From IMG/VR virus record IMGVR_UViG_2751185969_000015, positions 1 to 37,691 of that record: 37,691 bases of DNA; one strand, 5' to 3'. The DNA comes from a virus. Lineage: Duplodnaviria; Heunggongvirae; Uroviricota; Caudoviricetes. Positions 803 through 29,088 of this stretch are shown piece by piece; the first letter of the stretch is position 1; the number at the start of each line of letters is the position of its first letter. The translations under genes and the position numbers were made by a program. The notes below the pieces were generated by a model. That model searched no databases, had not been told where the DNA came from, and saw nothing but the letters and a program-made list of their open reading frames with translations.

Positions 803-1705
803 TCAGTAGTTATGTACTGAAGGAGGTAATTCTTTATTCTTAAGTCTCATCCATGCGGAAAGATTCGTTGGTCCGTCTGGCTCATTAATATCAACATCTC
901 GTGTATGGTTGATTAAAACATCTCTCGCCATATCGATAATACGGGAGAACTCATAACCGCAGTCATGACATCTGCCGGAATAGTTCGATTGAATTTGTTT
1001 TAATGCCGGATACAGTTCGCGGAATAATGCCTGTGAACGGTTGGCATAATCCCATAACCATACAAGGCTGTTTGCTTCTTTTGCAGAAAGCTCGTTGGTT
1101 TTCTTCTCTTGTTTGCCGATAAACTCACCTTCAAGCACTACCCTGTGGATGTACTCTACGGCTTGCGGTATCTGAGATGCATCAAGCTCTTCAATACTTT
1201 CCACATTGAAACGCTGATGAATCATTGCATAAGCTTCTGGGTACATTAGATGCTTTTTGCTGACCAGCATATTTACAGCATCACGAAGCGGAGTCCTGTC
1301 ATCAACAGATGTTTTCTTACGTGCATTTTCTGCCTTTCCCTTTGTCCAGTAGTCATGCAGTACAGTAAAGCATTCTTCCTGGTACTGAATCAGTTTATCA
1401 CGGATGTCAGCACGAACTTTCTCAGGGTTGATGCTGAACAGCCATCCATTTAACTTCTTCAGCGGGATGCATAAAAGCTTACGTAACTTGCCATCAGCGG
1501 CAACCATAGAGATATCTCTACAGTTGAATTTGTCCTTCATTTTACGCAACTTAACAGATTGACCAGTCCAGTCGATACCAATGTTTTCCACAATTTGACG
1601 CATCGCTACATAAGTCACTCCGGCAGCCATAGCGGTTAAAATCTGCTGACCATTGAAAGGCACGTAAGAGGTGTTCACTGCTTCTAAAATTGCTATACTA
1701 TTCAT
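803..1705 (-). CDS. ant: Antirepressor Ant (P22 immI type)
   Basis: Translation from the internal ATG (1703-1705) begins [37 protein letters not shown]..., matching P22 Ant as I recall it. GGAG-like RBS upstream. The track ORF start at 1771 is an upstream in-frame extension. Confidence 0.85.
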
Positions 1706-1767
1706 GTTGGTTTTTCTCCACGGATTTACCGACAACCGAAGCCCTGACTGTTCCCGCAGTTGGGGCT

Positions 1768-1989
1768 TCACTGTTTTTGTAAGTCACTGTAGCTATAAAG
1801 CCACTGACCACTCATTTTTGATTTGATTGACTCTACTGAATCACGGCAAGGAATGATTCCGCCTGACATCATTCTGATCTCCGTAAATTCACCACTCCTT
1901 ATCGATTCAATGCCATCAATGTTAACTAAAGATTTACCTCTACCAAGTGCATTCTCATAGCCAATCTCATCAACCTCAATAAACCTCAT
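1768..1989 (-). CDS. Hypothetical 73-aa protein inserted between arc and ant
   Basis: [29 protein letters not shown]...; its ATG overlaps the arc stop (ATGA), suggesting translational coupling. No family recognised. P22 has no gene between arc and ant. Confidence 0.5.
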
Positions 1990-2497: not shown

Positions 2498-2719
2498 TTA
2501 GTTATCAAAAAGTCCGTACGTTTCTTCTTCTTCAGGTGTAAGGGGAAGAATCTCTACTCTATCTATAGATACCTTTTCAATGTACCCATGAGGTCTACTT
2601 AAAATTAAAGCTCTCTCATGCCACAGAACTCCAAGAATGTGATACCTCCCAGCATCGCCTTTTACCCTGGCTCTTCCTTTGATTCTTGGCGACATAATGC
2701 CATATTTTTTCTTTGCCAT
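2498..2719 (-). CDS. Hypothetical 73-aa basic protein, last gene of the RHH/Bro-N operon
   Basis: ORF MAKKKYGIMSPRIKGRARVKGDAGRYHILGVLWHERALILSRPHGYIEK...; its ATG overlaps the stop of the upstream gene. No family recognised. Confidence 0.5.
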   Translation of the reverse strand: MAKKKYGIMSPRIKGRARVKGDAGRYHILGVLWHERALILSRPHGYIEKVSIDRVEILPLTPEEEETYGLFDN

Positions 2720-3447
2720 TATGCAACATTACTCCCATGAATCAGGTGTTGTAGTGCTTTAACACCTTCCGCATTGTAGCGGAATACTTCCACCTGTTTG
2801 CTGGAATGCGCAGATTTATCCAGGAAGAACTTACCGTACTGCTCAGTTTTGAGGTTGTTTGCGTTAGCAATGCGACCAATCTTGTTGGCCGTTACTCCAA
2901 GCTGCTCTGCAACCTCCCCTGCTGAGTAGTAATGCTCTTCTATTGCTGGAAGAGGTATTGCATTAAAACCAACGATCGGGTTGATTATGCTTGCTGCCGC
3001 AGTCTGCTTTGCTTCCGGCGCAAGATTTGGCATCAAATCGAACAGATTGGTAACAGCTTCAACCGTCATTTTCAATGTTCGCGCCTGGCGATACTCAACA
3101 AGTCCACTCGACGATTTACCGCTTTTAATGTGCGCTTCTTGCATACTTTCAAGTTGGTCTACAAGTGAGCGGCGAACAGCTTTAGATTCACGAGCAGCCA
3201 CTCGAAGGGCTTGCTTAATTGACATAACAACTTTTTCAGAAGTTGTCTTGTTTGATTTTTGAACTACGAAAATTTCGTAGTGCTCACCTTCAAGTTCATC
3301 CTTAATGCGTGCAATAAAGTCGTTATTTCGGACTTCTTTTTCCCCGCACTGTCTACGAGCATGATTGACCATCTCTAACAGGTACTGGCTATCAATGGTT
3401 TTATCCGTGACAACGGATCCGATGTTTGCTACATTCTTAAAAGTCAT
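2719..3447 (-). CDS. Antirepressor-like protein (KilAC / P22-AR-C type C-terminal domain)
   Basis: Start taken at internal ATG 3445-3447 (MTFKNVANIG...) with an AAGGA RBS. C-terminal segment YYSAGEVAEQLGVTANKIGRIANANNLKTEQYGKFFLDKSAHSSKQVEVFRYNAEGV resembles phage antirepressor C-terminal domains. Assignment from motif recall only. Confidence 0.5.
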   Translation of the reverse strand: MTFKNVANIGSVVTDKTIDSQYLLEMVNHARRQCGEKEVRNNDFIARIKDELEGEHYEIFVVQKSNKTTSEKVVMSIKQALRVAARESKAVRRSLVDQLESMQEAHIKSGKSSSGLVEYRQARTLKMTVEAVTNLFDLMPNLAPEAKQTAAASIINPIVGFNAIPLPAIEEHYYSAGEVAEQLGVTANKIGRIANANNLKTEQYGKFFLDKSAHSSKQVEVFRYNAEGVKALQHLIHGSNVA

Positions 3448-3535
3448 TAGGCATTCCTTATGTGGTAGTAAGGGTGTGACATAGGCCGCCAGCAGCACAC
3501 TGGCGGTTTTCTTTTTGCGCAGTCCGGCGCACCAA

Positions 3536-4162
3536 TCAATGAATCCATTCCTCGCCGCGAAGTTTTGCCAGCATTGGCTGAGCGTTCTTTACGACAAAAT
3601 TGTTGGTATCAAGATTCTTCATTTCACGAAGAAGTGATTTCTTGGTTTCTTCTGACATGTAGCGAGTCTCATATGCAATATCGTAAATCCTTCCTGAAAG
3701 CTCAGAACCAATTTGCTTCATTCCTGGGTAGATGTGTTTGCACGTTTGTTGACTCTTCTCCATCCACAATTGTAAGTAGCAGAGATTAACCAGTTCTTCG
3801 TCAGTAAACTGTTTTGCAATCGGTGAGCATTCTGCCTGCCGATCCAAAATATCCAGCACCCAGCGGCGGAACTCTTTGGCTACCGGAGTGCGAGCAAACA
3901 TCGCGATTAGGTGGGCACCGCGTAGTGAGAAAACTCGCACTTTTTTGCGATAATTTCCTGAGGTACTCACTTCGAGTACCTGAGTCATTCCGGCGCTAAA
4001 CTCATCGCTATACTTGTTATAAATCATTGTTACTGCACGACTATTTGCGTATTTAAGTGCAGATGCAATATTAGATGATGTAAACCAAACACCATGCATA
4101 TCACGGGTGGGCACCAACTCAACTCCGTGGAAGTTGTAATCTGATTTTGCTACAATACTCAT
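3536..4162 (-). CDS. Bro-N domain protein (putative antirepressor)
   Basis: Start at ATG 4160-4162 (MSIVAKSDYNFHGVELV...) with an AAGGAAA RBS. Clear Bro-N signature: ...WFTSSNIASALKYAN...RVFSLRGAHLIAMFARTPVAKEFRRWVLDIL. Confidence 0.7.
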   Translation of the reverse strand: MSIVAKSDYNFHGVELVPTRDMHGVWFTSSNIASALKYANSRAVTMIYNKYSDEFSAGMTQVLEVSTSGNYRKKVRVFSLRGAHLIAMFARTPVAKEFRRWVLDILDRQAECSPIAKQFTDEELVNLCYLQLWMEKSQQTCKHIYPGMKQIGSELSGRIYDIAYETRYMSEETKKSLLREMKNLDTNNFVVKNAQPMLAKLRGEEWIH

Positions 4163-4235
4163 GTTAGTTTCCTTGCATACGGTTACTGACATAGAGGCCC
4201 GGTTTGTGTTCGCGCACTGCCGGGCTTCACTATTT

Positions 4236-4409
4236 TTATTGGATGACAACATCGCCCTTTGCCTCAAGTTTCATCAATAACTCCATTCGATAAGCTATCT
4301 CTGCCTGAATTGACCTATGGCATCTTTTTGCTGATTCGCGGATATGTGAATCAACCTTTTCTGTAAAACGAACCTGACGCGGCTTGATGGAAGATATCTT
4401 TTCAGTCAT
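4236..4409 (-). CDS. Small ribbon-helix-helix-like regulator (57 aa); not in the ORF track because it is under 60 aa
   Basis: Hand translation: MTEKISSIKPRQVRFTEKVDSHIREAAKRCHRSINAEIAYRMELLMKLEAKGDVVIQ. Strong AGGAG RBS. Beta-strand then helix pattern typical of Arc/MetJ/CopG-type RHH proteins. First gene of the operon divergent from the S24-like regulator. Confidence 0.5.
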   Translation of the reverse strand: MTEKISSIKPRQVRFTEKVDSHIRESAKRCHRSIQAEIAYRMELLMKLEAKGDVVIQ

Positions 4410-4508: not shown

Positions 4509-5150
4509 ATGAATTTTGACGATCAATTCCCATCAAGAGTATCTCTGGCAAGACAGTCCAGGGGTATGACGCAGGCGCAGTTGTCAAAATTAGCTGGTGT
4601 TGTTCAACGTCAAATAGCTGCATACGAGGGTGGTGAGGCTAAACCACGGCTTCGGGTATTGCAGGCATTAGCCAACGCATTAGGTACTACAGCTGAGTGG
4701 TTAGCTCTAGGTGAAGGTCAGGGTCCGGGAACAAAAAACGTCATGCCTGACGTTCTGGTAAAGCAAATACCAATCCTCAAACTAGATGAAGTTATGCATT
4801 ACCTAAACACAGGTGAACATTCATCGTCTAGATTTCATCCGGCAATATACAATGTTGGTGACTCTGCATTTGCATTGACTATTGAAGGTGAAGCTATGAC
4901 TACAAGTTCAGGTATTAGCTTTCCCAGAGGATCGGTTGTCACGTTCAGCCCTCTAGTAAAAGCTAAAAGCAAAGATTATGTAATAGCATCATTGGATAAA
5001 GAGCAAATATTGAGCTTCAAACAGGTTTACATTGGTGAAATAGAGACAAACCTAGTATCCCTAAACCCAATGTATCCTAATATTCTTGTTAGAAATGAAG
5101 ATGTTAGTATTTTGGCAACCGCAGTTTACCTTGAAATCCCGTTGCTTTGA
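4509..5150 (+). CDS. CI/LexA-like regulator: XRE-family HTH plus S24-peptidase-like domain with Ser to Ala at the nucleophile position
   Basis: N-terminal HTH (GMTQAQLSKLAGVVQRQIAAYEGGEAKP). C-terminal domain aligns with the lambda CI C-terminal domain: AFALTIEGEAMTTSSG vs lambda [16 protein letters not shown], and SFKQV vs TFKKL. The Ser of the G-x-S-M motif is Ala; the catalytic Lys is retained. Confidence 0.75.
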   Translation: MNFDDQFPSRVSLARQSRGMTQAQLSKLAGVVQRQIAAYEGGEAKPRLRVLQALANALGTTAEWLALGEGQGPGTKNVMPDVLVKQIPILKLDEVMHYLNTGEHSSSRFHPAIYNVGDSAFALTIEGEAMTTSSGISFPRGSVVTFSPLVKAKSKDYVIASLDKEQILSFKQVYIGEIETNLVSLNPMYPNILVRNEDVSILATAVYLEIPLL

Positions 5151-5210
5151 TATCCTTTAGGAAGCGACACATTATCATCTGGTATCCTGCTCAAAACTAA
5201 GGAGGTTGGT

Positions 5211-5660
5211 GTGAGTGAAAAATTATCAGTTGAGATTTACAGGGATGCCAAAAAATTGATTAAAAAGGCATTGCTGATTTCCCTATCTTTGTTAGCCATT
5301 GCCATTGTTTATTTTGTGGCAGACAAAATCTATACAGAACAAAAAAATAGCAAAAAAAGCGCTGAACTGATTATGCGAGCCGAAAATGCTGTCAAGGGTA
5401 CCCAACCTAAGGTGTTCAATAGAACAGACCTTGGCGAAAGTCACTCTATTTCCATTTGGTTTATTAATGATTCAGATAAGCACATTCTTGTAGAAAAAAA
5501 CGGTGAAAAATCGTTGTTTTCTACAGGAGGATATGTATCCGGTGATATCCATGCATATCATCAGGCCGGAAAGGCATGCGAAACCCTGTCTTTTTCTATG
5601 GATTCAAGTTCTGTGATATCCGCTTCTTGCGATTTTGATGATTATTACCTTAAAAAATAG
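5211..5660 (+). CDS. Single-pass membrane-anchored protein (moron at the P22 sieA-equivalent locus); GTG start
   Basis: GTG start with AAGGAGG RBS 5 nt upstream. N-terminal hydrophobic helix LLISLSLLAIAIVYFV followed by a roughly 110-aa soluble domain. AT-rich. Lies downstream of the S24-like regulator on the same strand. Confidence 0.55.
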   Translation: MSEKLSVEIYRDAKKLIKKALLISLSLLAIAIVYFVADKIYTEQKNSKKSAELIMRAENAVKGTQPKVFNRTDLGESHSISIWFINDSDKHILVEKNGEKSLFSTGGYVSGDIHAYHQAGKACETLSFSMDSSSVISASCDFDDYYLKK

Positions 5661-5677
5661 CCATCCATGGCGTCACC

Positions 5678-7813
5678 TCAATCCTGTGCCATTCCGCTTA
5701 GCGATGCCACAATCCCAGCCCTCGACAAACGCTGGAACTCTTCGTTTCCTAGTGCATCGCGAATTGCTTTTACGGCGGCCTTATTTGCCATAAATCTGCG
5801 TTCCGCCGCCGCTAATGCGCCATCACTTGCCCCAACTTTAACTGCCTTTGTCGCCTCTTGAACAGCCTTTTCAATAGCGTAACGACCACTTCTGGTTGCG
5901 GATAATTTCGCTATCGATCCTTTTGCTATTGCATCAATTGCTCCACCTGCAGCGCCACCCACTATTGCTCCAATAACACCTCCTCCAGAGAACCCTGCGA
6001 TAGCGCCAGCGGTTGGAAAAGCGCCAGACAATACGCTCTCTAAAACTGGATGAAGGCCATTCTCAAGAGTGCTAATGGCTGGCATAGAGCGCCCTGTTTG
6101 TTCAACATATCGAAGTGGCTTTGTTGCTGCTCTTGCAAGTTCTCCAAACCCCCTGGCAATCCTACCAAGCTCTGGAGAATATCGACTAATTGCCTTCACG
6201 TTTTGTGGGGTAAGAATAGTCGCGATATGCTTAATTCCAGCCTCTTCAGACTTACCTCCGCGTACCCCTTGCGATACCGCATCTTGTAATATTGATGCAA
6301 TTGCTGGCGCGCGTTCCGACTCAGGTAGGGCGCTTATTATTTTATGGAACTGACCTGTTCCACTTTTTGCTGAACCCTGCAACGCCTTAGAGCCATTAGT
6401 TACCAACTGATCAGTTGCAAGGTCTCTACCAAACGCTGCTTCAGCCTGTTCTTGTGCTGTAAATCTTGCCTTTGACAGATCATTAGCTTTTTGCCAGTCA
6501 TCAAGAAAACCACCATTTTGAGCCATTATGCGCATATCTTCCGTTGCTGCATCACGAAGCTCAGCCATGCGCCTTGCCGTATTTGCCTCACCAGACCTTA
6601 TATACTTCTGCTCTGCGTCAGCAAGTTTACTTCGCCATGCCTTCATGGCATCAAACGTGATTCCTTTTTTACCAGTTTTAGCATAAGCAGATGCGAATTG
6701 TTTCATCTCAGGAGTTAGCGGCATGCCAGCCAAAATATCACCCTGAATTGTAGCGTTCAGGTTTGACATTCTGGCCTTTGCGTCAGGCATCGTGGAGCGA
6801 ACGCTATCCCATGCGGCCTTTTCTGAATTTTTCATTTTATCAATACTTGCCAAAACCCTTTGTTTTATGGCTGCACTTTTTTCTGATGCAGTTCCTGCTT
6901 CAGCCCCAAACTCATCCAATGCTGAGTTAAATTTCGACTCTATTTCACTGAATGCTTTGGTGTGTGCATCCTGTGTAATTCCGGGCTTTGACGCCAGAAT
7001 CCCCTCCGCCTGAGCAAGACCACGACTACCTGATCTCATGCCAGGAGTTAATGCGTTGATATCTATTCCAGCAGTATCTGCTGCTTTTGCTATTTCGTCT
7101 GACACATTAGCTGACTGTCTGGCGATAATCTCTCTTCCTGTACCAGACTTTGCCATTTTCGAAACATCAGCAGCGGAATTTATTGCCCCGCCACCAAGAA
7201 CTTGAGGTGATTTAGAGGTTAAGATCCTTCCAGCCCCAGAAAGTATCCCCTGAGCACCAATATTGATACCACCGTTAATGGCAGCATTTTGTGCAAAGTC
7301 GCCCTCCTGATTTGCAGCATCAGCAAGAGAACCTGCAATCATGTTTCCTGCGGAACCGATATCTCCAGCGAGCTTTGCTGGCGCTCCAGCAGCTTTTGCC
7401 GCTGTGCCAATTGGCAGGAGATACCCCCCAATTGTTTCACCGGCTTGCGCGTAAGGGTCTGTCGGTCGATCGACTGGACGATAGACATCATCCAATACTT
7501 TTGGCCCACCAAGCCCCTGACTGATTGCATTAATCAGACTTGCGCCACCCTGCAATACGTCAAATGGTATGTTTACCAGACCACGACCAGCCTGTTCTGC
7601 AATTTGCCCTGCACTTTGACCACCAGTGAGCCAATCGCCAGCTTGTTGCATCAATGATGGTTCTTCACGCGCTGGTTCATTATTGGCCTGATTAACTGTT
7701 TGTTGCTGAACAGCCTGACCAGCAAAATACTCATCAATGGCGGTGCCAATATCTTCCGTGCTCGTACCATCAGGAAAGGTAAATGTCTTACCATTTGCAG
7801 TTACTTTCATCAT
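5678..7813 (-). CDS. Ejection (injection) protein, P22 gp16-like
   Basis: 711-aa Ala/Gly-rich protein in the P22 gp16 position (downstream of the gp7 and gp20 homologs); overlaps the upstream gene by 4 nt. Confidence 0.7.
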
Positions 7814-28317: not shown

Positions 28318-28434
28318 ATGCCCTCCATAGTAAACACGAATAAAAAAATACAATATGTACTTTGCGAATACAAGTAAAAATACACATTGTGCATGGATGG
28401 TTCCAGTACAGAGCGTAATAATAAGGACATGAAA
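28318..28434. promoter_or_regulatory. cro-cI intergenic control region (OR with PR/PRM)
   Basis: 117-bp AT-rich spacer between divergent cro and cI. Contains TACA...TGTA-type near-palindromes (for example TACAATATGTA), similar to motifs in the PL region. Confidence 0.6.
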
Positions 28435-29088
28435 ATGAAATGGTATGAACTGGCTAGATCCAGAATGAAAGAGCTCGGCATAACTCAAGAGAAGTTAGCC
28501 GAAGAGCTAGGTATGACGCAGGGTGGGATTGGACACTGGTTGCGCGGATCTCGTCATCCATCTCTTAGTGATATTGGTGTGGTGTTTAAATACCTTGGTA
28601 TTGATAACATATCATTCAACCACGACGGGACATTTTCACCTGTTGGCGAATACTCATCGGCCCCAGTTAAAAAACAATATGAGTACCCTGTATTTTCTCA
28701 TGTTCAGGCTGGGATGTTCTCTCCAGAACTCAGAACCTTTACCAAAGGCGATGCGGAGAGATTGGTAAGCACAACCAAAAAAGCCAGTGACTCTGCATTC
28801 TGGCTTGAGGTTGAAGGTAACTCAATGACCGCACCAACAGGTTCCAAACCCAGCTTTCCTGACGGGATGTTAATTCTGGTTGACCCTGAGCAAGCTGTTG
28901 AGCCCGGCGATTTCTGCATAGCCAGACTTGGTGGTGATGAATTTACCTTCAAGAAACTGATCAGGGATAGCGGTCAGGTGTTTCTACAGCCACTAAACCC
29001 ACAATACCCAATGATCCCATGCAATGAGAGTTGTTCCGTTGTGGGGAAAGTTATCGCCAGCCAATGGCCTGAAGAGACGTTTGGGTGA
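28435..29088 (+). CDS. cI: CI repressor (hybrid: novel N-terminal HTH domain, lambda-type C-terminal S24 domain)
   Basis: C-terminal roughly 130 aa match lambda CI ([135 protein letters not shown]), including catalytic Ser and Lys. The N-terminal domain ([42 protein letters not shown]...) is unrelated to lambda CI. Start chosen at the second ATG (28435) for RBS spacing. Confidence 0.85.

What the first reader, a model, noticed from the sequence alone, without database searches (positions are those of the whole stretch)
5211..5660. AT-rich membrane-anchored moron at the sieA-equivalent locus, co-transcribed with the S24-like regulator
Seen in sequence: a GTG-initiated 149-aa ORF with a perfect AAGGAGG RBS, a single N-terminal transmembrane helix and a roughly 110-aa soluble domain, AT-rich, convergent with the end of the ejection-protein gene. 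Established knowledge: in P22 the interval between gene 16 and mnt carries sieA, an inner-membrane superinfection exclusion gene. Inference: this is a candidate superinfection-exclusion or other lysogenic-conversion protein; I could not verify similarity to SieA itself.
Basis: partly seen in the sequence, partly recalled or inferred. Interest (0 to 1): 0.6.

Follow-up and report, generated by a model that had tools for sequence, protein, structure and literature searches.

The report
Unknown membrane protein in P22 sieA slot
This is a real, uncharacterised gene for a membrane-anchored periplasmic protein that sits behind the same short leader sequence that drives the phage-exclusion gene sieA in phage P22, which makes it a good but untested candidate for a new kind of phage-blocking protein.

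Summary
Window 5211-5660(+) is a GTG-started 149-aa gene with AAGGAGG five bases upstream. It has one N-terminal transmembrane helix and 36.7% GC against 47.2% for the window, and it ends 17 nt from the stop of the convergent gene-16-type ejection gene.

It is not SieA. BLASTP and a profile comparison find nothing, it has 1 TM helix rather than 3, and the SieA motif is absent. It does occupy the sieA slot exactly: the 33 nt ending in its GTG (5181-5213) match the sequence before P22 sieA at 32 of 33 positions.

In 116 IMG/VR prophage slots, that leader precedes 12 unrelated small ORF families, 11 of which start with a hydrophobic segment. SieA fills 8 of the 116 slots and this family fills 4. 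Eleven kinds of upstream sequence combine with the families in many combinations.

The 149-aa family is small and unnamed. It occurs in Escherichia, Salmonella, Edwardsiella, Serratia, Morganella and Providencia. In all 9 distinct contexts inspected it lies next to gene 16 of a P22-like prophage.

The predicted layout is N-in, then a stalk helix, then an 8-stranded periplasmic beta-barrel with two invariant cysteines. The closest small folds are PliC/PhiA-type hydrolase inhibitors.

Superinfection exclusion is the best-supported function but is untested. Co-transcription with the S24 repressor is possible here but is not a conserved feature.

The parts
5211..5660 (+). 149-aa gene (stop codon included): candidate prophage-expressed envelope protein, member of an unnamed family
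   Evidence: ORF listing. The family has 15 representatives among 1.84 billion proteins. dN/dS is 0.35-0.45. There are no Pfam, PHROG, NCBIfam or PADLOC hits.
5181..5213 (+). Conserved 33-nt leader, GGTATCCTGCTCAAAACTAAGGAGGTTGGTGTG. It includes the Shine-Dalgarno AAGGAGG (5199-5205) and the GTG start (5211-5213). P22 sieA has the same leader.
   Evidence: P22 sequence. Unique in the window, with 0 expected by chance. At least 119 IMG/VR stretches carry it. About 180 of 5426 complete E. coli genomes match the 5' end of a 527-nt query that includes the leader.
5147..5175 (+). Promoter-like site TTGATA-17 nt-CATTAT overlapping the repressor stop codon. It is a candidate promoter for the ORF. TATCAT (5173-5178) aligns with TTTCAT, which lies in the corresponding position upstream of P22 sieA.
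   Evidence: Consensus scan (the number of sites found is no higher than in shuffled sequence, so this is weak evidence). Alignment of upstream types shows that the conserved part begins at ...ATCAT(CT).
5211..5267 (+). Residues 1-19: predicted cytoplasmic, positively charged tail containing the invariant residues Y10, D12 and K14
   Evidence: Alignments A2 and A5. Flank-charge count.
5268..5324 (+). Residues 20-38: the single transmembrane helix
   Evidence: Kyte-Doolittle 2.34. It lies within helix 3-60 of the AF2 model.
5325..5390 (+). Residues 39-60: predicted periplasmic stalk helix
   Evidence: AF2 model m28d48e4d36ff, pLDDT 86-96 in this stretch.
5409..5651 (+). Residues 67-147: predicted 8-stranded beta-barrel with invariant R71, W83, D87, G120, C123 and C140, and nearly invariant D89 and H91
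5660..5671 (+). 3' boundary element GCCATCCATGGC, overlapping the last base of the stop codon. It is shared by several unrelated cassettes and marks where the downstream gene-16 alleles diverge.
   Evidence: Unique in the window, 0.02 expected by chance. Downstream sequences of the cassette families.
4509..5150 (+). Context: HTH + Peptidase_S24 repressor in the position Mnt holds in P22, on the same strand, 60 nt upstream of the ORF
   Evidence: Pfam HTH_3 9e-13 and Peptidase_S24 1e-12. phrog_4. JEP4 has the same gene, followed by a different cassette.
5678..7813 (-). Context: gene-16-type ejection ('DNA transfer') protein, convergent with the ORF
   Evidence: phrog_770 E 3e-220. RefSeq annotation of near-identical prophages.

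Best explanation
The ORF is a genuine prophage accessory gene (a moron cassette) in the sieA expression slot of a P22-like (Lederbergvirus) genome.

Expression. It is translated from the same Shine-Dalgarno and GTG leader as P22 sieA. It is probably transcribed in the lysogen from a weak promoter at or just upstream of the leader, and in this genome possibly also by read-through from the S24 repressor gene.

Product. The protein is predicted to insert in the inner membrane with its short, conserved, positively charged N-terminus in the cytoplasm. One transmembrane helix follows, then a periplasmic stalk helix, then an approximately 80-residue 8-stranded beta-barrel that probably carries a disulfide (C123-C140).

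Most likely role (inferred, not shown). It protects the lysogen from superinfection. The barrel would bind a periplasmic component of an incoming virion's envelope-crossing apparatus, either the gp7/gp20/gp16 ejection-protein conduit or a virion-borne peptidoglycan hydrolase, so that DNA delivery stalls at the inner membrane. That would make it a functional analogue of SieA but not a homologue.

Shown: gene reality, locus identity, shared leader, family distribution. Predicted: topology and fold. Inferred: expression in the lysogen, the target and the exclusion phenotype.
For: - Same leader as P22 sieA, with the same GTG as start. For P22, sieA plus 85 bp upstream is sufficient for exclusion (PMC10883804, read).
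- The 149-aa gene is also found behind the P22 PsieA-type upstream region.
- Family members at 22-36% identity from Serratia, Morganella and unassigned samples occupy the same place, either between mnt and gene 16 or next to gene 16, convergent with gene 16. So do the Salmonella and E. coli copies. This synteny with the ejection genes has been kept across genera.
- 11 of the 12 alternative occupants of the slot start with a hydrophobic N-terminal segment. The only occupant with a known function is an injection blocker (PMC10883804).
- Topology: the N-terminal flank is net positive in all 16 members, and two cysteines in the C-terminal domain are invariant.
- Purifying selection is strong on the tail and TM region (omega 0.10-0.19) and looser on the periplasmic domain (omega 0.43), as expected for a surface that tracks variable targets.
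Against: - There is no experimental data for any family member.
- There is no sequence or topological similarity to SieA or to any PADLOC defence model.
- Locus analogy is weak on its own. SieA fills only 8 of 116 leader-bearing slots, and the other families are functionally unknown.
- The promoter is only a consensus match at background frequency.
- Topology comes from charge counts and cysteine conservation, not from a dedicated predictor or an experiment. The region just after the TM helix also carries several lysines.
Confidence: 0.45

Rival explanations
1. Lysogenic conversion unrelated to phage exclusion. The periplasmic barrel would act as a PliC/MliC/PhiA-like inhibitor of host-derived or bacterial muramidases, or would bind another envelope ligand. 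It would benefit the lysogen in animals or in competition and not against phages.
Against: There is no Pfam hit to MliC or to any other family, even at E 0.1. The loop that would correspond to an inhibitory loop (residues 104-118) is the least conserved part of the family. The protein is anchored in the inner membrane by a TM helix and is not secreted or lipidated. The strict linkage to the ejection-gene end of P22-like prophages is not explained by this reading.
Confidence: 0.2
2. It serves the phage's own lytic cycle, not the lysogen. For example, it might stop newly released virions from injecting into the already infected or lysing cell, or modulate envelope events late in infection. It would be expressed mainly after induction.
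For: P22 sieA, which has the same leader, is upregulated during induction (PMC10883804). The gene lies inside the late-operon 'ant moron' (PMC2629481). Transcripts from the convergent late operon and the immI region change on induction.
Against: The gene is absent from most P22-like phages: 5 of 5426 complete E. coli genomes carry it, against about 180 with the leader region. It is therefore not needed for the lytic cycle. It lies on the strand opposite to the late operon. Mechanistically this rival overlaps with exclusion.
Confidence: 0.12
3. A membrane-disrupting abortive-infection effector built like Cap15 (transmembrane segment plus a small ligand-binding beta-barrel facing the cytoplasm), triggered by an infection signal.
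Against: No cyclase or other signalling partner lies nearby. There is no PADLOC hit. The charge bias and the invariant cysteine pair favour a periplasmic barrel. There is one TM helix here, whereas Cap15 has two (my own recollection, not checked here).
Confidence: 0.05

Closest known systems
P22 SieA (types A, B and C; Leavitt et al. 2024, PMC10883804)
   Same: - The same genomic slot, between gene 16 and the immI/tailspike region of P22-like prophages.
- The same convergent arrangement, about 20 nt from the gene 16 stop.
- The same 33-nt leader with AAGGAGG and a GTG start (32 of 33 positions).
- Similar size: 149 aa against 162-164 aa.
- An inner-membrane protein, predicted here and shown for SieA.
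- A similar host range: Enterobacterales carrying P22-like prophages.
   Different: - No detectable sequence or profile similarity.
- One TM helix plus a large periplasmic beta-barrel, instead of 3-4 TM helices with small loops.
- It lacks the cytoplasmic FxRYPxEAxxFNK motif.
- No exclusion phenotype has been demonstrated.
MliC/PliC/PhiA periplasmic peptidoglycan-hydrolase inhibitors (PDB 3oe3, 4mir, 7dpy)
   Different: - 3-11% identity and no Pfam MliC hit.
- No conserved counterpart of the inhibitory loop motifs (motifs recalled from memory, not tested rigorously).
- Anchored by an N-terminal TM helix and stalk, not by a signal peptide or lipid anchor.
- Encoded by a prophage.
Other single-pass or small membrane superinfection-exclusion proteins (T4 Sp and Imm, lactococcal Sie2009, HK97 gp15). 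Named from my own knowledge and from the reference list of PMC10883804.
   Same: Small prophage- or phage-encoded proteins with an N-terminal membrane anchor that act at the DNA-entry step. T4 Sp works by inhibiting a virion lysozyme in the periplasm, which is one of the mechanisms proposed here.
   Different: No homology was tested or is expected. Those proteins come from unrelated phages and have different folds (as I recall, Sp is helical). Their targets differ: gp5 lysozyme, or the tape-measure/PtsG route.
The 'ant moron' of P22-like phages (Villafane et al. 2008, PMC2629481) and HK620 hkcB / epsilon34 gene 14
   Same: The ORF is one more occupant of this known hypervariable region. epsilon34 gp14 (hkcB-like) uses the same leader and the same position.
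   Different: In the two papers I read, I found no mention that the occupants next to gene 16 share an identical leader and start codon and a common 3' element. The 149-aa family itself is not mentioned in any paper found.

Membership tests
SieA (P22-type superinfection exclusion protein) | Detectable sequence similarity to type A, B or C SieA | tested here: not met
   BLASTP against P22 SieA gives no alignment at E<=100. hhalign of the 16-sequence family profile against P22 SieA gives probability 0.1%. Only type A was available. Types B and C were not compared directly.
SieA (P22-type superinfection exclusion protein) | Three (type A) or four (types B, C) transmembrane helices | tested here: not met
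   One hydrophobic segment, residues 20-38. The rest of the AF2 model is a stalk helix plus a beta-barrel. By the same method P22 SieA shows 3-4 hydrophobic segments.
SieA (P22-type superinfection exclusion protein) | Conserved cytoplasmic motif FxRYPxEAxxFNK | tested here: not met
   The motif is absent from the 149-aa sequence (read directly). The regex finds it only in genuine sieA loci and in none of the loci that carry the 149-aa family.
SieA (P22-type superinfection exclusion protein) | Located between the gene 16 and gene 9 homologues of a P22-like prophage, convergent with gene 16 | tested here: met
   Window layout, P22 layout, and the shared 33-nt leader.
SieA (P22-type superinfection exclusion protein) | Blocks DNA injection by P22-like phages | not testable with these tools
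   This needs plating and potassium-efflux assays.
MliC/PliC/PhiA hydrolase-inhibitor barrels | Eight-stranded antiparallel beta-barrel | tested here: inconclusive
MliC/PliC/PhiA hydrolase-inhibitor barrels | Sequence-family membership (Pfam MliC) and conserved inhibitory loop motifs | tested here: not met
   No Pfam family passes its threshold, and none of the sub-threshold matches down to E 0.1 is MliC. The 104-118 loop is unconserved in the family. The motif definitions are from memory.
MliC/PliC/PhiA hydrolase-inhibitor barrels | Export by a cleavable signal peptide or lipobox | tested here: not met
   The hydrophobic segment starts at residue 20, after a charged 19-residue tail with invariant residues. 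There is no lipobox.
Moron (independently acquired accessory gene in a phage operon) | Present or absent among otherwise syntenic relatives | tested here: met
   5 of 5426 complete E. coli genomes carry it, and about 180 carry the leader region with other genes. Twelve alternative cassette families were found.
Moron (independently acquired accessory gene in a phage operon) | Base composition different from the flanking genes | tested here: met
   36.7% GC against 48.0% for gene 16 and 47.2% for the window, the 0.5th percentile.
Moron (independently acquired accessory gene in a phage operon) | Own promoter and terminator | tested here: inconclusive
   There is a promoter-like site at 5147-5175, but such sites are no more frequent here than in shuffled sequence. 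No terminator-like site follows, and only 17 nt separate the ORF stop from the gene 16 stop.
Cap15-like CBASS membrane effector | Encoded in an operon with a CD-NTase and with a cytoplasmic nucleotide-binding barrel | tested here: not met
   No such neighbour appears in any of the contexts inspected. There is no PADLOC hit. Charge bias and the invariant cysteines point to a periplasmic barrel.

The most novel reading that the evidence does not exclude
The position next to gene 16 in P22-like phages is a dedicated cassette-exchange site. It is defined by a fixed 33-nt leader that supplies the ribosome-binding site and the GTG start codon, and by a short 3' element (GCCRTCCWTGGC). Phages shuffle at least a dozen unrelated envelope proteins through this site, each a different barrier to incoming phages. 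On this reading the 149-aa family is a new class of exclusion protein: an inner-membrane-tethered periplasmic beta-barrel that captures the ejection-protein conduit or a virion peptidoglycan hydrolase.
Probability: 0.3. Interest if true: 0.75.

Novelty: new variant of a known kind. Interest (0 to 1): 0.55.

Why it matters
SieA is so far the only protein known to act on the P22 ejection-protein conduit, and how it works is still unclear (PMC10883804). A second, structurally unrelated protein in the same expression slot would offer an independent and more tractable handle on DNA delivery by short-tailed phages. It has a soluble periplasmic domain that can be purified and used in pull-downs against gp7, gp20, gp16 and gp4.

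More broadly, one identical leader is followed by 12 unrelated, mostly membrane or secreted, ORF families. That gives a cheap way to harvest candidate exclusion or conversion genes from Enterobacterales prophages: search for the 33-mer and read the ORF that follows. It is also a clean example of module exchange with the junction placed exactly at the start codon.

If the gene instead has no anti-phage activity, that would warn against inferring function from locus equivalence in phage hotspots.

Tried and rejected
Annotation libraries
- Pfam, PHROGs, NCBIfam and PADLOC give nothing significant for the ORF.
- tblastn against 50,697 phage records gives no match.
- The family profile against PDB sequences gives only a designed helical protein at E 0.37.

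Homology to SieA
- Rejected by BLASTP and hhalign.

Searches of other collections
- The GTDB species-representative scan with alignment A3 found 95 pattern matches but no true relative. The gene is too rare to be present in the representative genomes.
- Alignment A2 was too divergent for the search for related loci.

Structure
It was replaced by the 16-sequence model.
- The afdb50 fold library was unavailable.

RNA element in the leader
- The fold is not better than shuffled sequence (z -1.3), and there is no Rfam match.

Peptidoglycan-hydrolase target in this phage
- The window's gene-16 protein might have carried a lytic transglycosylase domain, which would supply a local target for a PliC-like inhibitor. 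PHROG 29864 is labelled 'transglycosylase', but Pfam finds no SLT domain in it.
- Only the Serratia homologue has an SLT domain, so the idea stays speculative.

Literature
- Searches for the RefSeq accessions and for hkcB/hkcC found nothing relevant beyond the epsilon34 paper.

Full report
**What is at the coordinates**

Window 5211-5660(+) is an open reading frame of 149 codons plus stop. It starts at GTG.
- AAGGAGG lies at 5199-5205, five bases upstream of the GTG.
- The next in-frame methionine is residue 55, so the GTG is the only sensible start.
- The product has one strongly hydrophobic stretch, residues 20-38 (mean Kyte-Doolittle 2.34 over 19 residues). A lysine-rich 19-residue tail precedes it and 111 residues follow.
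- The gene is 36.7% GC in a 47.2% GC window. That is the 0.5th percentile of all 450-nt windows.
- It ends 17 nt from the stop codon of the convergent 711-aa gene at 5678-7813(-). That gene is a gene-16-type 'DNA transfer' (ejection) protein (phrog_770, E 3e-220).
- Upstream on the same strand, 60 nt away, lies a 213-aa HTH + Peptidase_S24 repressor at 4509-5150.
- Further left are an Arc-like gene and three antirepressor-like genes on the other strand.

The window is a P22-like (Lederbergvirus) genome with its virion genes on the minus strand.

**It is a real gene**

- The exact protein is on record from about 95 contigs, all called 'hypothetical protein'.
- A word-indexed search of 5.8 billion protein clusters found only three clusters.
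- An exhaustive profile search of 1.84 billion representatives found 15. Ten have E<=1e-10, and almost all are 146-155 aa.
- Named members come from Escherichia coli, E. marmotae, Edwardsiella tarda, Salmonella enterica, Serratia marcescens, Morganella morganii and Providencia.
- Members 22-36% identical to the window protein keep Y10, D12, K14, A57, R71, W83, D87, G120, C123 and C140 invariant.
- Against the 85%-identical alleles, dN/dS is 0.35-0.45 overall. It is 0.10-0.19 for codons 1-60 and 0.43 for codons 61-149.

**The locus is the sieA slot**

In P22 the order is gene 16, then sieA (convergent, 22 nt from the gene 16 stop), PsieA, a terminator, orf59a, mnt, then arc and ant on the other strand.
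- The sequence immediately before P22 sieA is ...TTTTTTCATGGTATCCTGCACAAAACTAAGGAGGTTGGTGTG.
- The window has ...TATCATCTGGTATCCTGCTCAAAACTAAGGAGGTTGGTGTG at 5173-5213.
- The last 33 nt differ at one base, and the same GTG is the start codon in both.
- This 25-mer occurs once in the window, with none expected by chance.

The ORF uses sieA's own translation-initiation leader.

**The slot holds many unrelated genes**

Reading the ORF that starts at the GTG gave 116 complete ORFs in 12 families with no BLASTP similarity to one another.

| Cassette family | Slots |
|---|---|
| 107-109-aa hkcB-like, anchor plus coiled coil (epsilon34 gene 14) | 28 |
| 129-aa, with an N-terminal hydrophobic, signal-peptide-like segment | 25 |
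| 62-aa, two-TM | 11 |
| 75-aa | 9 |
| second 109-aa family | 9 |
| SieA type A | 8 |
| 140-aa (the only family without an N-terminal hydrophobic segment) | 6 |
| 116-aa, multi-TM | 5 |
| 99-aa | 4 |
| 149-aa (this family) | 4 |
| 103-106-aa | 4 |
| 68-aa | 3 |

- Eleven of the twelve families begin with a hydrophobic segment.
- None of the ten other families scanned, SieA included, has a Pfam family. The 68-aa family was not scanned.
- The 40 nt upstream of the leader fall into 11 kinds. These include the P22 PsieA region, an epsilon34-type region, the 3' end of the S24 repressor gene (as in this window) and a P63C-gene flank. They occur in many combinations with the cassettes.
- The 149-aa gene follows the P22 PsieA-type region in three IMG/VR loci.
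- The S24-repressor 3' end is followed in other genomes by the 62-, 75-, 103-, 109- (both families) and 129-aa cassettes, for example in phage JEP4.
- At the 3' side, seven families are followed directly by CCATCC(A/G)TGG. In the window this is GCCATCCATGGC at 5660-5671, unique, with 0.02 expected.
- The hkcB-like family has this element inside its last codons, and P22 sieA has a degenerate copy.
- The same 149-aa cassette abuts two different gene-16 3' ends just after this element.
- One prophage has two leaders, each with a different cassette.
- Among 5426 complete E. coli genomes, about 180 match the leader region and only 5 carry this gene.
- The window's own junction, S24 repressor plus the 149-aa cassette, was not seen elsewhere.

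The general variability of this region is known as the 'ant moron', with ten types in sixteen genomes (PMC2629481). In the two papers I read, I found no description of a shared leader and start codon.

**Synteny of distant members**

- In Serratia and in two unassigned Logan assemblies, the homologue follows mnt by 19-38 nt and is convergent with gene 16 (sequence).
- In the Morganella-type locus it lies next to gene 16, behind an oppositely oriented small gene.
- In Salmonella it has its own, different ribosome-binding site. There the sieA-type leader drives a 161-aa lipoprotein further upstream.
- In three E. coli prophages its upstream neighbours are oppositely oriented Panacea, P63C or YafO genes.

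The constant feature is adjacency to the 3' end of gene 16 in a P22-like prophage. Co-transcription with an S24 repressor is not a constant feature. In this window read-through is possible, because no terminator-like site lies in the 60-nt gap. A promoter-like TTGATA-17-CATTAT (5147-5175) is also present, although such matches are no more frequent here than in shuffled sequence.

**Not a SieA**

SieA proteins are 162-164 aa or longer. [quoted passage not shown]
- The window protein gives no BLASTP alignment to P22 SieA.
- Its family profile gives 0.1% hhalign probability.
- It has one TM helix and lacks the motif.
- Types B and C could not be compared directly.

**Predicted structure and topology**

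With 16 family sequences, AlphaFold2 gives mean pLDDT 87.9 and pTM 0.71. The model has one helix from residue 3 to 60 (tail, TM, stalk) and eight strands between residues 67 and 147.
- In all 16 members the 15 residues before the TM helix are net positive. The 15 residues after it are less positive or negative in most members.
- The two invariant cysteines lie in the C-terminal domain, 17-19 residues apart.
- Both points favour N-in/C-out, with a disulfide-bonded periplasmic barrel. This is a prediction. I could not measure the Cys-Cys distance because model coordinates are not exposed.
- Higher-ranked hits are the lipocalin-like C-terminal barrels of PBP-type enzymes. Many other hits align only with the long helix.
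- Identity is 3-11% and no Pfam MliC signal exists. This is a resemblance of fold, not membership.

**How it most likely works**

*Shown*
- The gene is real.
- It occupies sieA's slot with sieA's leader.
- It stays next to the ejection genes across six genera.

*Established elsewhere*
- P22 sieA with 85 bp of upstream DNA is sufficient to block injection.
- Escape mutations map to the C-terminal parts of gp16 and gp20.
- sieA is weakly expressed in lysogens and rises on induction (PMC10883804).

*Inferred*
- The 149-aa protein is expressed in the lysogen.
- It stands in the inner membrane with its barrel about 20 residues of helix away from the membrane surface.
- It interferes with an incoming virion's trans-envelope apparatus, either the E-protein conduit or a virion peptidoglycan hydrolase.
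- The looser constraint on the periplasmic domain (omega 0.43 against 0.1-0.2) and the recombinant allele in L014 fit a surface that tracks variable targets, but do not prove it.
- The invariant cytoplasmic Y-x-D-x-K tail suggests a second, cytoplasmic-face contact that I cannot explain.

I put this explanation at 0.45.

**Rivals**

| Rival | Probability | Main point |
|---|---|---|
| Non-phage lysogenic conversion, such as muramidase inhibition | 0.20 | Supported only by the fold neighbours |
| A role in the phage's own lytic cycle | 0.12 | The gene is absent from most relatives |
| A Cap15-like abortive-infection effector | 0.05 | No partner genes, and the predicted topology is opposite |

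The remainder is 'something else'. One speculative link is that the Serratia prophage's gene-16 homologue carries an N-terminal SLT lytic-transglycosylase domain (Pfam E 7e-22) next to its copy of this family. The window's gene-16 protein is 23% identical over about 640 residues but lacks that domain. A transglycosylase target therefore cannot be general.

**Novelty and verdict**

- The kind of thing is known: a prophage moron for a small membrane protein at an exclusion locus.
- The protein family is uncharacterised and unrelated to SieA. Its architecture, a TM-tethered periplasmic 8-stranded barrel, differs from the Sie proteins of enterobacterial phages that I know of.
- I did not find the shared leader and 3' element around a dozen unrelated cassettes described in the papers I read.
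- I rate it a new variant of a known kind, with interest 0.55. It is a solid, directly testable candidate. There is no functional evidence yet, and the class it most likely belongs to is familiar.

Noticed in passing
window 5181-5213; P22 L007 4829-4861(-); IMG/VR loci L015-L133: The 33-nt leader, ending in the GTG start codon, is shared by P22 sieA and by 12 mutually unrelated small ORF families, 11 of which have a hydrophobic N-terminus. Eleven kinds of upstream sequence combine with the cassettes in many combinations.
   Followed up: yes
window 5660-5671: The 12-mer GCCATCCATGGC follows the stop codon of seven unrelated cassette families. It lies inside the last codons of the hkcB-like family and is degenerate after P22 sieA (GCCGTCCTTGGC). 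Gene-16 alleles diverge right after it. Its role (recombination joint, or something else) is unknown.
   Followed up: partly
window 4509-5150 and 28387-29088: The genome has two HTH + Peptidase_S24 (LexA/CI-like) repressors. One lies in the usual immunity region. The other sits where Mnt sits in P22, divergent from an Arc-like gene and antirepressor genes, which suggests an SOS-cleavable controller of antirepressor expression.
   Followed up: partly
window 803-1771, 2719-3498, 3536-4267 (all minus strand): Three antirepressor-like genes (Ant/BRO-N/P22_AR_C, phrog_245, phrog_1726) lie in a row downstream of the Arc-like gene at 4236-4409.
   Followed up: no
L075 2340-2372 and 4105-4137 (IMGVR_UViG_2545824644_000015): One prophage carries two copies of the leader. 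The first drives the 129-aa cassette with the signal-peptide-like N-terminus. The second drives an 87%-identical copy of the 149-aa gene. A P63C gene lies between them.
   Followed up: partly
L004 about 3813-4001 (phage JEP4, MT740315.1): An unannotated 62-aa two-TM ORF follows the leader in JEP4, in the gap between the 'repressor protein C2' gene and gene 16.
   Followed up: partly
L136 and L137 6471-9155 (Serratia marcescens prophage): The gene-16 homologue (893 aa) has an N-terminal SLT lytic-transglycosylase domain at residues 50-154. The window's gene-16 protein aligns with the rest of it at 23% identity but lacks that domain.
   Followed up: partly
L014 6001-6447: This allele of the 149-aa gene is recombinant. 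Codons 1-60 are identical to the window, and codons 61-149 match the 85%-identical variant. The gene is therefore itself mosaic between the anchor and the barrel.
   Followed up: partly
L134 6263-6782 (Salmonella enterica prophage): A variant of the leader (GGTATCCTGCACAAAACTAAGGAGAGTTAATCATATG) precedes a 161-aa lipoprotein with an LAGC lipobox. The 149-aa homologue lies further downstream with a different ribosome-binding site.
   Followed up: no
L075 1974-2378(-); P22 L007 about 4862 onward(+): In the P22-type upstream module, the bases TTTTTTCAT that abut the leader are the reverse complement of the ATG start of a divergent 134-aa ORF. The leader is therefore the whole intergenic space between the two genes, and PsieA lies inside that ORF.
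   Followed up: no
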